A stretch of 32,000 nt of DNA from an archaeon (GTDB lineage Archaea > Asgardarchaeota > Thorarchaeia > Thorarchaeales > Thorarchaeaceae), in contig JAJRZD010000105.1 in the NCBI GenBank assembly GCA_024275415.1, positions 22,685 to 54,684 of the forward strand, given 5' to 3'. The position numbers and the translations under genes were made by a program. The stretch's first letter is position 1. Every line of letters starts with the position of its first letter. This document shows, in pieces, positions 16,978 to 19,696 of this stretch. The notes under the pieces were generated by a model. It was given only the letters and a program-made list of their open reading frames with translations. It was not told the DNA's origin and did no database searches.

Positions 16978-17010
16978 TTCGGGTCGCCGAGGAAACCTTT
17001 CGGTTGTCTA

Positions 17011-17018
17011 TTATAATA
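17011..17018 (-). promoter_or_regulatory. Candidate TATA box for the trans-sulfuration gene
   Basis: TATTATAA on the minus strand ~35 nt upstream of ATG 16977. Confidence 0.35.
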
Positions 17019-17088
17019 CATCTAGCTTAAAGGCAAAACGTCCAGAGTAGCATTGTTTGACGTTTCGAAGGTATATCCATCATTTCTC

Positions 17089-17580
17089 TCACGGTATCTC
17101 CCTGAGCATGATGATTGCTGGTGTCGAATCGTAGTAGTAGAGGGATATCCTTCCCCCAGTCCTGAAACCAAGCTTCGTGTAGAATTGATAGCCTTCCACA
17201 TTGTCATGATCAACATCCACGAAAAGTGCCCTTTTGTCGTGGTCAATCCCGTATTGAATCATCGCCTCGCAAAGTGCCGATGCTATCCCTTGCCGTCGGG
17301 CGTTCGTGTCAACGACCAGCATTTCAATCCACAGCCTGCCTTCTTCCTCGACGCCCATTACTGCTAACCCAAGGGTATGTTCAGGTTGATCAGGTACCAC
17401 TGCAAGATAGGCTATCCATGCATCAAGGTCAAGGAAGCTCTGGAGCCATTCTTGAGTGACCCATTCCCTGATATCATGGAGACCTAGGGCTTCGGCGGAC
17501 TTGAGGATGTGCTGTGCGTCTTGGGATTGCACTATCTGGACATCCCGTGTGAAACCACTCCTCGCGCTCTCACCGGACAC
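17089..17580 (-). CDS. GNAT family N-acetyltransferase
   Basis: Motif A LVVDTNARRQGIASAL and motif B N..GYQFYTKLGF. Confidence 0.9.
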   Translation of the reverse strand: MSGESARSGFTRDVQIVQSQDAQHILKSAEALGLHDIREWVTQEWLQSFLDLDAWIAYLAVVPDQPEHTLGLAVMGVEEEGRLWIEMLVVDTNARRQGIASALCEAMIQYGIDHDKRALFVDVDHDNVEGYQFYTKLGFRTGGRISLYYYDSTPAIIMLREIP

Positions 17581-17599
17581 CCTTGGTCACCACCAATCT

Positions 17600-19696
17600 C
17601 TAGAAGTCGTAAATCACGCTCTCCACACCCTTCAAGGATTCATTGGACTCGAGGATGACTCGTGTCATCTCAGTCTTTCGTACTGTGAACATGACTGATG
17701 AGTAGGGTGCCTTGTTCAGTTGGACATGCGTCGTATAGGTCACTGGAGAATATTTGCCATGATAGTTCGAAGTAGTCTTGTTCAATATCACTGCGTAATG
17801 CCATTTCTCAGTCGACCTCTCTAGAATCTCCACATCAAGCATTTCTAGCAGGTAATTCGCCTTGAGCTTTTGCATTCCGGACGACTCAAAATTAATCAGT
17901 CCAATCCCACCAATCCTAAGCATCGAGAGACCTCTCGATAGGAACAAAGCAAATGCTTCAATGGTAAAGTCGGGATCAGCCACAAAGAGGTCAAACTGTT
18001 CCTGGTCGAGCGGCAGTGCTGAACGCAAGTCTACCTGTTGAATTCTGATGTTGAGGTTCTCTTCCTGTGCTATGAGTGCTATCAATGCACAAGTGTACGG
18101 GTCGACCTCAAGTAGGGTGACCTCGATACCTCGCCTTGCTAATGAAACAGAGATGAGGTCGTCATCGCCCACCATCAAGACTCTCTGTGGCTCAAATCGC
18201 AGGATATGGCGAAGCTTTTTGAGATGCGCGCTGGGCATGAGCGGGGCCTGCCCAAGTGTGTAGTCCAACACTTTTCGCCGAGCAAGGAGCGCTACTGTTT
18301 CGTTGAACCAAGGATCATCGGACTTGTCGATTCTCAGGAACATGGACTCGCTGTGCGAGTCAGGTTCAGCTACCATTACTGATGGTTCAAGATACCGACT
18401 TGTGGCCGGGCTTGTTATCTGAGGCTGGGGGCCATCCGAAACCATGCCATCATCACGATTCGTGGTAAACGCATCAAGGACATTAATTAGCTGTGAATCT
18501 AGCATTTTTTGGGTGTTGGTGAGGATATTGACGAGCTCGTGGAACTCCACAGCATTGGTGTCGATGATTCCTAATGCTAGCCTGTAGAGCAGCTCCATGC
18601 TTCTCTCGCTGAAGGCAAATAACAGGTTCTTGTACTTCTGCGTTCCTATCGTCTGGGCTATTGCGATTGTGTCGTCCGGGTTCACTACGACATATATACC
18701 ATCACGCAGTTTGGCAGGTCTTGCTTCTGCATCCATCTGTAACAGGCTCTGATAGTCTATGTGCAATGGATTCCAGAGCGACGGTGCCACTTTTTTCTTT
18801 CTCTTTCTAGGTGGTTTCAGCTCTCCTGCCATTATCCGTACGGCTTTTACAACAGATGCCTTTACTCTCCTTTTGCGTATGAACCTGGCAGCAGCTGCCA
18901 GTCCAAGTAGTACAACGAGGGCCACAACAAGGTTAATGAGCAATGTCTGGATCCGAGCTTGTGTTGCAGCTTCATCGATATCGATAGGATAGCTTGACTC
19001 AAGAAGCACTCCTCGCTCTTCCCAGTCAAAATTACCTACAGATGTTAAAGCACGAGCAGTCCATAATTCAGCAACGAAATATCCCGTTTCTGGGTCGTAG
19101 TAATAGGAATCATCAAAAGTGATGGTGAACGAGCCGTCAGGATCGTATTCCGAATCATTGATGGTCTGCTGGACTCCCTCGGCCCGAACTTCGATGACCT
19201 CGATGATATTGATGAAGTCCTTCTGAAAGTGCGTCAGACCTTTTACCTCGTATTCGTTCCCAAGAATACTAATCTTGGTGCCTACGGGTGTATCAGGGTC
19301 AATCCTAAACCATGTGTAGTCGAACTTGTAATATGTTTTGTAATTCGTGGGTGCATCTATCGTGTTGTTGATGTATTCGCGAGTCTGTCCGTTGATGGTG
19401 AATTGGTGAGATGTTTCCTCATAGAGAGAGTTGTCCTCATTATCAGAATAGGAGTAGTTACGTTCCATGTTCCATGTGATCAAGTCGCCAGAGATACTAT
19501 CAACGGTATAGGTCCTCGTTTCGATCTCTGTTTCGGTATAGTCCTCGTAATCCCTTGAAGAACCTTGGAGATACGTTGTGAACTCGACTTTGAAGTAGTC
19601 GTCGAGCGAGTATTGCATCTCTGCTGAAACCTTCACAGGTGATAGTGTAAGCATCCCAATTACAATCAGTACCACGAACCACTTCTTGCGTACCAT
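17600..19696 (-). CDS. bpsA: Single-pass membrane protein: signal peptide + ectodomain + TM + C-terminal branched-chain polyamine synthase (BpsA/DUF43)-like aminopropyltransferase domain
   Basis: C-terminal ~230 aa has LGQA, VLMVGDDDLISVSL (GDDD at 18158..18169), LLEVD, VDLRSALP, FDLFVADP, LFLSRGLSML, matching BpsA motifs in order as I recall them. The symbol applies to this domain only. Confidence 0.8.
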   Translation of the reverse strand: MVRKKWFVVLIVIGMLTLSPVKVSAEMQYSLDDYFKVEFTTYLQGSSRDYEDYTETEIETRTYTVDSISGDLITWNMERNYSYSDNEDNSLYEETSHQFTINGQTREYINNTIDAPTNYKTYYKFDYTWFRIDPDTPVGTKISILGNEYEVKGLTHFQKDFINIIEVIEVRAEGVQQTINDSEYDPDGSFTITFDDSYYYDPETGYFVAELWTARALTSVGNFDWEERGVLLESSYPIDIDEAATQARIQTLLINLVVALVVLLGLAAAARFIRKRRVKASVVKAVRIMAGELKPPRKRKKKVAPSLWNPLHIDYQSLLQMDAEARPAKLRDGIYVVVNPDDTIAIAQTIGTQKYKNLLFAFSERSMELLYRLALGIIDTNAVEFHELVNILTNTQKMLDSQLINVLDAFTTNRDDGMVSDGPQPQITSPATSRYLEPSVMVAEPDSHSESMFLRIDKSDDPWFNETVALLARRKVLDYTLGQAPLMPSAHLKKLRHILRFEPQRVLMVGDDDLISVSLARRGIEVTLLEVDPYTCALIALIAQEENLNIRIQQVDLRSALPLDQEQFDLFVADPDFTIEAFALFLSRGLSMLRIGGIGLINFESSGMQKLKANYLLEMLDVEILERSTEKWHYAVILNKTTSNYHGKYSPVTYTTHVQLNKAPYSSVMFTVRKTEMTRVILESNESLKGVESVIYDF

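What the first reader, a model, noticed from the sequence alone, without database searches (positions are those of the whole stretch)
17600..19696. Receptor-like, membrane-anchored branched-chain polyamine synthase (BpsA) fusion
Seen in sequence: a signal peptide (MVRKKWFVVLIVIGMLTLSPVKVSA, aa 1-25), an acidic Tyr/Thr-rich beta ectodomain (aa ~26-250, nt ~18947-19621), one TM helix (aa ~252-270, nt ~18887-18943) and a strongly basic stop-transfer stretch (RKRRVK…RKRKKK). A ~160-aa unassigned region follows, then a domain with GDDD, EVD, DLR..LP and FD.F..DP motifs. Established: BpsA (N4-bis(aminopropyl)spermidine synthase, e.g. Thermococcus kodakarensis) is a soluble class-I-MTase-fold enzyme with a GDDD motif that uses dcSAM. 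Inference: the positive-inside rule places the BpsA domain in the cytoplasm and the ectodomain outside, the layout of a type I single-pass receptor-enzyme. An aminopropyltransferase gated by an external ligand, or localised to aminopropylate a membrane or envelope substrate, is not something I know to have been described.
Basis: partly seen in the sequence, partly recalled or inferred. Interest (0 to 1): 0.92.

Follow-up and report, generated by a model that had tools for sequence, protein, structure and literature searches.

The report
Membrane-anchored BpsA-like aminopropyltransferase cassette
A real, conserved gene encodes a polyamine-building (BpsA-family) enzyme tethered inside the cell membrane below an external beta-barrel domain. 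It always travels with its own acetyltransferase and, in Asgard archaea, its own SAM decarboxylase; I found no paper describing this arrangement, and its product is unknown.

Summary
ORF 17600-19696(-) encodes 698 aa: a signal-peptide-like N-terminus, an acidic all-beta ectodomain, one TM helix, a strongly basic inside flank and a cytoplasmic BpsA-family domain.

The "unassigned" region is the equivalent of the BpsA N-domain. Residues 352-698 align colinearly with canonical BpsA (hhalign 99.7%). GDDD, the D225, E259 and Y316 equivalents and a C-terminal YD tail are kept; Y290 is not. The Pfam score is low (67 bits against about 340 for canonical Asgard BpsA), so it is a divergent family member. 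Calling it an N4-bis(aminopropyl)spermidine synthase is not justified.

The ectodomain folds confidently (pLDDT 96.5) into an LmcA/DUF3068-like barrel. More distant relatives of the same ectodomain are fused to GNAT domains.

The gene sits in a conserved cassette. A dedicated GNAT lies downstream in 11/11 loci (Thorarchaeota, other archaeal MAGs and Leptolyngbya/Nodosilinea cyanobacteria). An AdoMetDC lies upstream in 5/5 archaeal loci with enough upstream DNA; it overlaps the ORF's start by one base in this window and is tightly spaced in the others. In this genome it is the only AdoMetDC, no SpeE was found, and the cassette is rare (10/400 Asgard genomes).

Most likely it is a self-contained dcSAM -> aminopropyl transfer -> N-acetylation module at the membrane. 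The acceptor, the product and the ectodomain's ligand are unknown, and receptor-type gating is unproven. Other first-reader notes of this scan cover the same operon on this same stretch; I found no paper describing it.

The parts
17600..19696 (-). Whole ORF, 698 aa (P0001): membrane-anchored BpsA-family protein
19622..19696 (-). aa 1-25: signal-peptide-like N-terminus (basic n-region RKK, hydrophobic core, VSA before E26). Cleavage not tested
   Evidence: hydrophobic peak conserved in all 9 homologues
18947..19621 (-). aa 26-250: acidic, aromatic-rich beta-barrel-like ectodomain with an LmcA/DUF3068-like fold
   Evidence: AF2 pLDDT 96.5; Foldseek LmcA E 1e-6, TM 0.5; VIA Z 12.4; atlas; net charge negative in 36/36 relatives
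18887..18943 (-). aa 252-270: single transmembrane helix LLINLVVALVVLLGLAAAA
18782..18880 (-). aa 273-305: basic stop-transfer / juxtamembrane stretch (14 K/R in 33 aa)
17603..18643 (-). aa 352-698: complete BpsA-like enzyme (N-domain equivalent plus Rossmann domain plus C-terminal IYDF tail), cytoplasmic
   Evidence: hhalign 99.7%, 313 columns against canonical BpsA; Pfam; PDB
18158..18169 (-). GDDD motif (aa 510-513), the dcSAM aminopropyl-binding motif of BpsA
   Evidence: PMC12979288
19696..20121 (-). Class 1b AdoMetDC (SpeD) homologue. Its stop overlaps the fusion's ATG by one base (TAATG). It is the only AdoMet_dc hit in the genome
17089..17580 (-). Dedicated GNAT acetyltransferase, 19 nt downstream; co-conserved in 11/11 loci
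20118..20534 (-). Hemerythrin overlapping the AdoMetDC start. A lineage-specific addition, seen only in this window and the same-genus locus L005

Best explanation
The gene is the core of a small, mobile accessory cassette: speD - ecto/TM-BpsA-like - GNAT in archaea, and the last two genes in cyanobacteria.

**Shown**
- The protein is a single-pass type-I membrane protein.
- Its cytoplasmic part is a complete but divergent BpsA-family enzyme with the active-site residues intact.
- Its external part is an LmcA/DUF3068-like beta-barrel.

**Inferred mechanism**
1. The co-transcribed AdoMetDC makes decarboxylated SAM.
2. The tethered enzyme transfers the aminopropyl group onto an amine acceptor at the inner face of the membrane. 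The acceptor is most likely a di- or polyamine such as spermidine, made by a dcSAM-independent route.
3. The dedicated GNAT N-acetylates the substrate or the product.
4. The external barrel binds a ligand (hydrophobic or polycationic). This localises the pathway at the envelope or couples it to an envelope cue.

The exact acceptor, the product and the ectodomain's ligand are unknown.
For: **Architecture and topology:**

**Enzyme family**
- Pfam BpsA_C at 67 bits, above the cut-off of 27.
- Best PDB sequence hits are Tk-, Pf- and Tth-BpsA.
- The top eight Foldseek hits are BpsA structures.
- hhalign against canonical Asgard BpsA gives 99.7% probability, E 5e-26, 313 columns, colinear from the N-domain to the C-terminus.
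- GDDD, D574 (=D225), E604 (=E259), Y/F665 (=Y316) and the C-terminal IYD tail are invariant or nearly so in 18 members (residue roles from PMC12979288).

**dcSAM supply**
- The adjacent gene passes the TIGR03330 AdoMetDC equivalog cut-off.
- It keeps the ESHIS.HTWPE...TC processing and catalytic residues, including the Pro, in all 6 cassettes. PMC10407285 reports a Pro that is conserved in all bona fide AdoMetDCs.
- It overlaps the fusion's start by one base.
- It is the only AdoMet_dc hit in this genome and in two other cassette-bearing genomes.
- In the window's taxonomic family, all 7 genomes with the fusion have it adjacent, while 75 of 86 genomes have none.

**GNAT link**
- The GNAT lies directly downstream in 11/11 loci across two domains of life.
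- It forms a closed clade of about 20 clusters among 5.8 billion proteins.
- Distant relatives of the ectodomain are fused to GNAT domains.

**Accessory, not housekeeping:** found in 10/400 genomes of the phylum.

**Possible acceptor source:** CASDH-like and decarboxylase genes are present in the genome.
Against: - No biochemical data exist for any member of this family.
- The Pfam match covers only model positions 45-155 and scores a fifth of what canonical BpsA scores.
- The Y290 equivalent is missing, so acceptor specificity probably differs from BpsA.
- The window's protein has only one acidic residue in the final YD tail, where Tk-BpsA has a cluster of aminopropyl carriers.
- SpeD homologues in genomes without SpeE have repeatedly turned out to be arginine or ornithine decarboxylases (PMC10407285). 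The Pro criterion was read from text, not from the paper's figure.
- The cyanobacterial loci lack an adjacent AdoMetDC.
- The GNAT's substrate is unknown. Its best PDB match is a protein N-alpha-acetyltransferase, with spermidine acetyltransferases scoring lower.
- Nothing tested here shows what the ectodomain binds.
Confidence: 0.5

Rival explanations
1. Receptor-enzyme. The external barrel is a sensor, and ligand binding or oligomerisation is transmitted through the single helix to switch the cytoplasmic aminopropyltransferase on or off. An outside cue would thus be converted into a polyamine signal.
For: - The type-I layout, with a long continuous helix (aa 242-289) running from the membrane into the cytoplasm in the AF2 model.
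- The atlas search finds barrels of this shape (PorA/PF11271 class, TM 0.62) as N-terminal domains of archaeal histidine kinases.
- The same ectodomain is combined with two different cytoplasmic enzymes, BpsA-like and GNAT, as sensor modules usually are.
Against: - No signalling or linker domain (HAMP, PAS and the like) was found between the helix and the enzyme.
- The segment after the helix is predicted disordered (pLDDT <50 at aa 302-306), which is a poor transmitter.
- Oligomerisation was not tested.
- The closest solved fold, LmcA, and its neighbours are lipid carriers, not sensors.
Confidence: 0.2
2. Envelope- or lipid-modifying enzyme. The acceptor is a membrane-embedded amine, such as an amino-lipid head group or a lipid-linked envelope precursor. 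It is aminopropylated and acetylated on the inner face, and the LmcA-like barrel handles the flipped product outside.
For: - The best structural matches of the ectodomain are lipid-binding barrels: LmcA (Z 12.4, 194 residues aligned), CD36/LIMP-2, ApoB/vitellogenin and LolA.
- LmcA is described as a putative lipoglycan-biosynthesis protein with two cavities (PMC8972800, abstract).
- Membrane tethering of an otherwise soluble enzyme family needs a reason.
Against: - The fold match is only topological (TM about 0.5, 11% identity), and 12-stranded barrels of any function score nearly as high.
- No flippase, transporter or lipid gene is conserved next to the cassette.
- BpsA-family enzymes are known only with soluble polyamines (PMC12979288).
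- The ectodomain is strongly acidic, which suits cations at least as well as lipids.
Confidence: 0.15
3. Not an aminopropyl pathway. The SpeD homologue is a neofunctionalised arginine or ornithine decarboxylase, and the BpsA-like domain is a methyltransferase, another transferase or a pseudoenzyme.
For: - The genome has a SpeD homologue but no SpeE hit. That is the pattern which flagged neofunctionalised SpeDA/SpeDC in PMC10407285.
- Generic SAM methyltransferases follow closely behind BpsA in Foldseek (E 3e-8 against 1e-9).
- The Pfam match is partial.
Against: - GDDD and the other BpsA-specific residues are invariant, whereas a methyltransferase would keep a carboxylate-tolerant glycine-rich motif I.
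- The SpeD homologue passes the AdoMetDC equivalog threshold, with no other NCBIfam hit.
- It keeps the HTWPE proline in all cassettes.
- A separate Orn_Arg_deC_N hit in a 619-aa open frame exists in the genome and may already supply a decarboxylase; its type was not determined.
- A related Thorarchaeal genome has BpsA_C and AdoMet_dc hits in one open frame.
Confidence: 0.08
4. Housekeeping spermidine synthase surrogate. In a lineage without SpeE, this enzyme makes the spermidine needed for deoxyhypusine modification of aIF5A.
For: It is the only candidate aminopropyltransferase and sits beside the only AdoMetDC in a 92.9% complete genome that encodes deoxyhypusine synthase.
Against: - The cassette is absent from most close relatives, including genomes more than 90% complete in the same genus (2 of the 6 other genomes of the genus, 6/85 in the family).
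- Leptolyngbya sp. PCC 6406 carries the pair in addition to a normal AdoMetDC-SpeE gene.
- A housekeeping role explains neither the ectodomain nor the dedicated GNAT.
Confidence: 0.05

Closest known systems
BpsA, N4-bis(aminopropyl)spermidine synthase (Thermococcus kodakarensis TK1691, PDB 5XNC; Thermus thermophilus, PDB 6J27; Pfam PF01861/DUF43)
   Same: - Colinear over the whole enzyme (hhalign 99.7%).
- Rossmann core with GDDD.
- Equivalents of D225, E259 and Y316.
- The DLR..LP and FD.F..DP motifs.
- A C-terminal [IL]YD acidic tail.
- A neighbouring AdoMetDC, implying dcSAM use.
   Different: - Preceded by a signal peptide, a 225-aa external barrel and a TM helix, whereas BpsA is soluble.
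- Pfam score is a fifth of canonical.
- No Y290 equivalent.
- The FDQ motif is replaced by LGQ.
- No CxxC in the N-domain.
- The acidic tail is reduced to one Asp in this protein.
- Found in mesophilic sediment or mat archaea and cyanobacteria, not thermophiles.
- Always paired with a GNAT.
- Product unknown.
LmcA / PgfA (MSMEG_0317, DUF3068; PDB 7N3V) of Mycobacterium smegmatis
   Same: - An elongated beta-barrel held on the outer face of the cytoplasmic membrane.
- The best solved structural match of the ectodomain (VIA Z 12.4, rmsd 4.5 A over 194 residues; Foldseek E 1e-6).
   Different: - About 11% identity.
- No Pfam PF11271 hit.
- LmcA has no cytoplasmic enzyme domain.
- LmcA's function (lipoglycan or mycolate trafficking) has no counterpart in archaea or cyanobacteria.
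speD-speE operons and AdoMetDC-aminopropyltransferase gene fusions (for example the 440-aa AdoMetDC-SpeE open frame in Leptolyngbya sp. PCC 6406 found here)
   Same: An AdoMetDC gene is coupled directly to its dcSAM-consuming aminopropyltransferase as one functional unit.
   Different: - Here the transferase belongs to the BpsA family, not the SpeE (PF01564) family.
- It is membrane-anchored with an ectodomain.
- A GNAT is the third obligatory member.
Ectodomain-TM-GNAT proteins (about 530-590 aa, uncharacterised; P0021, P0031 and others)
   Same: Homologous signal peptide, barrel ectodomain and TM helix (phmmer E 1e-13 to 1e-4), with a cytoplasmic small-molecule transferase below.
   Different: - The cytoplasmic enzyme is a GNAT instead of a BpsA-like domain.
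- Their operon partners are different: two unknown genes of about 390 and about 510-550 aa.
- They appear to be bacterial, with no AdoMetDC nearby.

Membership tests
BpsA / PF01861 (BpsA_C, DUF43) family | Significant match to the family profile, above the curated cut-off | tested here: met
   67.4 bits against a cut-off of 27, but only model positions 45-155 of 243. In the whole-genome scan, 69 bits.
BpsA / PF01861 (BpsA_C, DUF43) family | Colinear homology to the whole enzyme (N-terminal domain plus Rossmann domain plus C-terminal tail) | tested here: met
   hhalign of 18 fusion cytoplasmic domains against 12 canonical Asgard BpsA: 99.7%, E 5.4e-26, 313 columns, aa 352-698 aligned to positions 1-359. 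The alignment is weak in the N-domain.
BpsA / PF01861 (BpsA_C, DUF43) family | GDDD motif (Tk G157-D160) that positions the aminopropyl group of dcSAM | tested here: met
   GDDD 510-513, invariant in 18/18 (role from PMC12979288).
BpsA (EC 2.5.1.128) as an enzyme | Acceptor-site residues D225, E259, Y290 and Y316 of Tk-BpsA | tested here: inconclusive
   D574 (18/18), E604 (16/18) and Y/F665 (18/18) align with D225, E259 and Y316. Y290 falls in a gap with no aromatic equivalent; W632 and Y634 align with Tk W293 and Y295 instead.
BpsA (EC 2.5.1.128) as an enzyme | Flexible C-terminal acidic cluster that carries the aminopropyl group (ping-pong mechanism) | tested here: inconclusive
   The family ends in an invariant [IF]YD[FYI]. 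This protein ends in IYDF, so only D697 is acidic in that motif (E691 lies 6 residues upstream). Cyanobacterial members end in IYDYDDD. Tk-BpsA has ELYDDEE.
BpsA (EC 2.5.1.128) as an enzyme | Converts spermidine to N4-aminopropylspermidine and N4-bis(aminopropyl)spermidine using dcSAM | not testable with these tools
   Needs an enzyme assay and LC-MS.
Type-I single-pass membrane protein | One internal TM helix with positive-inside charge bias, and an N-terminal export signal | tested here: met
   Kyte-Doolittle peaks at aa 7-25 and 252-270 only. K/R is 1 in the 16 residues before the helix and 14 in the 33 after it. The pattern is conserved in homologues. Signal-peptide cleavage itself was not tested (no SignalP or DeepTMHMM here).
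LmcA / DUF3068 (PF11271 PorA) barrel family | Sequence-profile membership | tested here: inconclusive
   No Pfam hit for the ectodomain at E <= 0.01. There is fold similarity only: Foldseek E 1e-6 with TM 0.5, VIA Z 12.4, atlas TM 0.62-0.64 to PorA-domain proteins.
Class 1b AdoMetDC (SpeD), for the upstream neighbour | Equivalog-level profile match, the pyruvoyl-forming Ser, catalytic His and Cys, and the Pro reported as conserved in bona fide AdoMetDCs | tested here: met
   TIGR03330 at 84 bits against a cut-off of 75.65. ESHISVHTWPE...FTC is present in all 6 cassettes. The Pro criterion comes from PMC10407285; that it is the HTWPE proline is my inference.

The most novel reading that the evidence does not exclude
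A transmembrane metabolic receptor. Binding of an external ligand (for example a polycation or an envelope lipid) to the acidic, aromatic-rich LmcA-like barrel switches a cytoplasmic dcSAM-dependent aminopropyltransferase. That enzyme, with its private AdoMetDC and GNAT, then makes a dedicated acetylated or branched polyamine as the intracellular response. This would be a signalling logic not known for polyamine enzymes. It would be shared by Asgard archaea and cyanobacteria through inter-domain transfer, and would rest on an ectodomain that also drives GNAT enzymes.
Probability: 0.2. Interest if true: 0.85.

Novelty: new variant of a known kind. Interest (0 to 1): 0.66.

Why it matters
BpsA-family enzymes are known as soluble makers of branched polyamines in thermophiles. 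Here a complete but divergent BpsA-like enzyme is tethered to the membrane under an external barrel domain, in sediment and mat organisms not known to be thermophiles.

- **A pathway that can be tested directly.** The enzyme is locked into a three-gene unit with its own dcSAM supply and its own acetyltransferase. That points to an unknown polyamine-derived product, or to a new way of placing or controlling polyamine synthesis at the cell envelope.
- **A possible reason for dcSAM in Thorarchaeota.** In the window's own family, 8 of the 11 AdoMetDC hits lie in genomes that also carry this BpsA-like gene (7 adjacent on the same contig), while 75 of 86 genomes have no AdoMetDC at all. The cassette may therefore be the main reason these archaea make dcSAM.
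- **An experimental route.** The gene pair also occurs in Leptolyngbya strains from the PCC culture collection (PCC 6406, PCC 7376). This opens experiments that are impossible in the uncultured Asgard hosts.
- **A reusable outside module.** The same ectodomain is also fused to GNAT enzymes, which suggests a wider and unrecognised class of 'barrel-TM-transferase' proteins.

Tried and rejected
- **BpsA-GNAT binding.** Complex prediction of the BpsA-like cytoplasmic domain (A5) with the neighbouring GNAT (A4) returned no verdict (score 0.10, mark 0.32). This is not evidence either way.
- **Sequencing runs.** The look-up of sequencing runs for 17000-20600 listed none, and no RNA holder was listed. 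Read mapping and expression could therefore not be checked.
- **Assembly chimera.** Rejected, because the architecture is conserved in more than 20 independent assemblies.
- **Literature.** Searches for DUF43/PF01861, BpsA with cyanobacteria, and membrane aminopropyltransferase fusions found no paper on this architecture. The library is limited to open-access papers and bioRxiv.
- **Short relatives of the enzyme.** A word-indexed search for short relatives of aa 440-698 returned only fragments of the same family, with no canonical BpsA. Canonical sequences were taken from Asgard genomes instead.
- **Standalone versus fused GNAT.** The standalone GNAT is not specifically related to the GNAT domains of the ectodomain-GNAT paralogues; the similarity is only generic (best E 0.002 in a tiny database). 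A simple fission history is therefore not supported.
- **Extra conserved neighbours.** None were found beyond SpeD, the fusion and the GNAT. Hemerythrin and pirin are conserved only in the same-genus locus L005.
- **Protein-atlas feature search of the ectodomain.** Scores were <= 0.82 (DUF3108-like), which are leads only.
- **Linker and operon partners.** Pfam on the juxtamembrane region (aa 290-470) and on the two partner genes of the GNAT-fused paralogues found nothing significant.
- **Pirin recoding.** Conserved stop-codon recoding was considered and rejected, because the orthologue has Gly at that position.
Full report
**1. The observation**

The ORF at 17600-19696 on the minus strand is real and encodes 698 aa.
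- The N-terminus, MVRKKWFVVLIVIGMLTLSPVKVSA, has the shape of a Sec signal peptide.
- A Kyte-Doolittle scan finds only two hydrophobic peaks, aa 7-25 and aa 252-270. Both recur at the same places in the homologues.
- Residues 26-250 carry 45 D/E against 15 K/R, 21 Tyr, 25 Thr and no Cys.
- The 33 residues after the helix hold 14 K/R, against 1 in the 16 residues before it. The positive-inside rule therefore places the C-terminal part in the cytoplasm.
- Signal-peptide cleavage could not be tested because no predictor was available.

**2. The cytoplasmic part**

Sequence and structure searches agree on BpsA.
- Pfam gives BpsA_C (PF01861) at 67.4 bits against a cut-off of 27, but only over model positions 45-155.
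- The best PDB sequence hits are BpsA of T. kodakarensis, its P. furiosus homologue (deposited as a predicted methyltransferase) and BpsA of T. thermophilus.
- A full-length AlphaFold2 model (pLDDT 81) has BpsA structures as its top eight Foldseek hits. Generic methyltransferases follow closely behind.

I took 12 canonical, roughly 360-aa BpsA genes from Asgard genomes. One of them matches Tk-BpsA at 391 bits over its full length. I aligned their profile to a profile of 18 fusion-family cytoplasmic domains. The result was 99.7% probability, E 5e-26 and 313 aligned columns, with aa 352-698 colinear with canonical positions 1-359. A whole BpsA-like enzyme hangs below the membrane.

I used the residue roles summarised in PMC12979288 and the printed Tk alignment.
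- Conserved: GDDD; D574 (=D225); E604 (=E259, 16/18); Y/F665 (=Y316); and a terminal [IF]YD motif matching Tk ...LYDDEE.
- Not conserved: Y290 has no counterpart, and the acidic tail is short in this protein.
- Canonical Asgard BpsA scores 320-346 bits on the same Pfam model.

This is a divergent family member with an apparently intact dcSAM site. Its acceptor specificity may well differ from BpsA, so it should not be named an N4-bis(aminopropyl)spermidine synthase.

**3. The ectodomain**

I built an alignment of 36 relatives from an exhaustive HMMER search. With it, AlphaFold2 gives a very confident model: pLDDT 96.5, pTM 0.91, about 11 long antiparallel strands.
- The best solved match is M. 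smegmatis LmcA: Foldseek E 1e-6 with TM 0.5, and VIA Z 12.4 over 194 residues.
- Next come 12-stranded barrels, CD36/LIMP-2, ApoB/vitellogenin and LolA-type lipid carriers.
- The ESM-atlas search finds the same shape in archaeal hypothetical proteins (TM 0.8-0.88). More distantly, it finds it in PorA/DUF3068-domain proteins, including archaeal histidine kinases (TM 0.62).

These are fold resemblances, not family membership. All 36 ectodomains are net acidic (-4 to -36) and 12-20% aromatic, and the conserved positions are mostly Tyr, Trp, Phe, Asp and Glu. That composition would suit a cationic ligand as well as a lipid. This last point is inference only.

**4. Relatives and context**

Full-length homologues (35-54% identity) occur in Thorarchaeota and other archaeal MAGs, and in Leptolyngbya/Nodosilinea cyanobacteria, including large scaffolds of strains from the PCC culture collection. 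That rules out an assembly chimera.
- **GNAT.** tblastn and ORF clustering show a GNAT directly downstream in 11/11 loci. It belongs to a closed clade of about 20 clusters among 5.8 billion proteins, after which scores drop from 141 to 45 bits.
- **AdoMetDC.** An AdoMetDC homologue lies directly upstream in all 5 archaeal loci with enough upstream DNA. It is absent from the cyanobacterial loci.
- **Other neighbours.** No other neighbour is conserved. Hemerythrin and pirin accompany the cassette only in this window and in L005, a locus from the same genus.
- **Spacing in this window.** The AdoMetDC stop and the fusion's start overlap (TAATG), and the GNAT follows after 19 nt.

**5. The AdoMetDC**

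It passes the TIGR03330 equivalog cut-off. It also keeps ESHIS.HTWPE...TC in all six cassettes.

PMC10407285 warns that SpeD homologues in genomes without SpeE are often arginine or ornithine decarboxylases. The same paper states that one Pro is fully conserved in bona fide AdoMetDCs but not in the arginine-decarboxylase forms. The HTWPE proline is present here, but identifying it as that diagnostic Pro is my own inference.

In this genome (92.9% complete):
- it is the only AdoMet_dc hit;
- the fusion is the only BpsA_C hit;
- no SpeE-type hit was found.

Within the window's taxonomic family, all 7 genomes carrying the fusion have AdoMetDC adjacent, while 75 of 86 genomes have none. One related genome has BpsA_C and AdoMet_dc hits in a single 507-aa open frame.

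Leptolyngbya sp. PCC 6406 has an AdoMetDC-SpeE open frame elsewhere in its genome, so dcSAM is available there.

The window's genome also encodes deoxyhypusine synthase, an arginase-family protein, two saccharopine-dehydrogenase-like proteins and a PLP decarboxylase. Spermidine made by the dcSAM-independent carboxyspermidine route is therefore a plausible acceptor, but this is unproven.

**6. The wider ectodomain family**

About 20 more distant relatives of the ectodomain (530-590 aa) share the signal peptide, barrel and TM helix but end in a GNAT domain. They lie upstream of two conserved genes of unknown function.

A tree of the ectodomains shows three things.
- It separates a GNAT-fused clade from a BpsA-fused clade (support 100/99).
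- One BpsA fusion, P0024, sits at the base of the GNAT clade.
- The cyanobacterial sequences form one clade (100/100) within the BpsA-fused group. This fits a single inter-domain transfer. The direction is not established, because many rows have no taxon label and the root is assumed.

The barrel-TM module is thus linked to GNAT chemistry twice, once in cis and once as a fixed neighbour.

**7. Distribution**

The ectodomain-plus-TM part was found in 10 of 400 genomes of the phylum. It is missing from several genomes more than 90% complete in the same genus and family. The cassette is therefore accessory, not housekeeping.

**8. Interpretation**

The best-supported reading is a self-contained module. 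AdoMetDC makes dcSAM. The membrane-tethered BpsA-like enzyme transfers the aminopropyl group to an amine acceptor at the inner face of the membrane. The dedicated GNAT acetylates the substrate or the product.
- **Shown:** the architecture, the family relationship, conservation of the active-site residues, and the gene linkage.
- **Inferred:** the donor (from the neighbour and from GDDD), the class of acceptor, the order of the steps, and the role of the ectodomain.

Rival readings, set out in the Rival explanations section, are:
- a lipid or envelope acceptor with the barrel acting as carrier;
- a non-aminopropyl function;
- a housekeeping spermidine synthase.

**9. Novelty**

NCBI and UniProt label the cyanobacterial homologues 'bis-aminopropyl spermidine synthase family protein' or DUF43, so the family assignment is not new. 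I found no paper describing the following:
- the membrane-anchored architecture;
- the LmcA-like ectodomain;
- the SpeD-fusion-GNAT cassette;
- the GNAT-fused paralogues;
- the distribution across archaea and cyanobacteria.

Other first-reader notes of this scan had already flagged the operon and the BpsA-type domain on this same stretch. I class it as a new variant of a known kind, of fairly high interest.

Noticed in passing
window 20596-21453 (-), stop at 21103-21105: The pirin gene is one reading frame broken by an in-frame TGA. The orthologue in the same-genus locus L005 (3513-4361) is intact, with Gly at that position. A nonsense mutation or sequencing error is more likely than recoding.
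   Followed up: yes
G323:C1:2691646-2692692 (-), a related Thorarchaeal genome: The BpsA_C (160 bits) and AdoMet_dc (100 bits) Pfam hits lie in a single 507-aa open frame. This looks like a BpsA-AdoMetDC fusion without the ectodomain, and is an independent link between the two activities.
   Followed up: no
L014 6001-10378; L015 2286-6663; L016 6001-10524: Ectodomain-TM-GNAT paralogues (about 550 aa) are followed by two conserved, tightly spaced (overlapping or a few nt apart) genes of about 390-400 and about 510-550 aa with no Pfam family. This is an uncharacterised three-gene operon built on the same outside module.
   Followed up: partly
P0024 (685 aa, metagenomic): This is a BpsA-fused protein whose ectodomain groups with the GNAT-fused clade (support 100/99). 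It suggests the cytoplasmic enzyme was exchanged on the same barrel-TM chassis at least once.
   Followed up: partly
G000:C43:18624-19541, C38:34749-35489, C54:845-1624, C19:1293-2144: The window's genome has two saccharopine-dehydrogenase-like genes, one Orn/Arg/DAP-decarboxylase-like gene (619-aa open frame) and a deoxyhypusine synthase, but no SpeE hit. It may make spermidine by the carboxyspermidine route.
   Followed up: partly
G001 (Leptolyngbya sp. PCC 6406) C1:1782056-1783180 (-): AdoMet_dc and Spermine_synth hits share one 440-aa open frame, giving an AdoMetDC-SpeE fusion gene in the cyanobacterium that also carries the BpsA-like/GNAT pair.
   Followed up: no
window 20118-20534 (-) and L005 5056-5469: A bacteriohemerythrin gene overlaps the start of the AdoMetDC gene by 4 nt. 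It is conserved only in the same-genus locus and absent from the other cassettes, so it is a lineage-specific addition and possibly an O2/redox link.
   Followed up: partly
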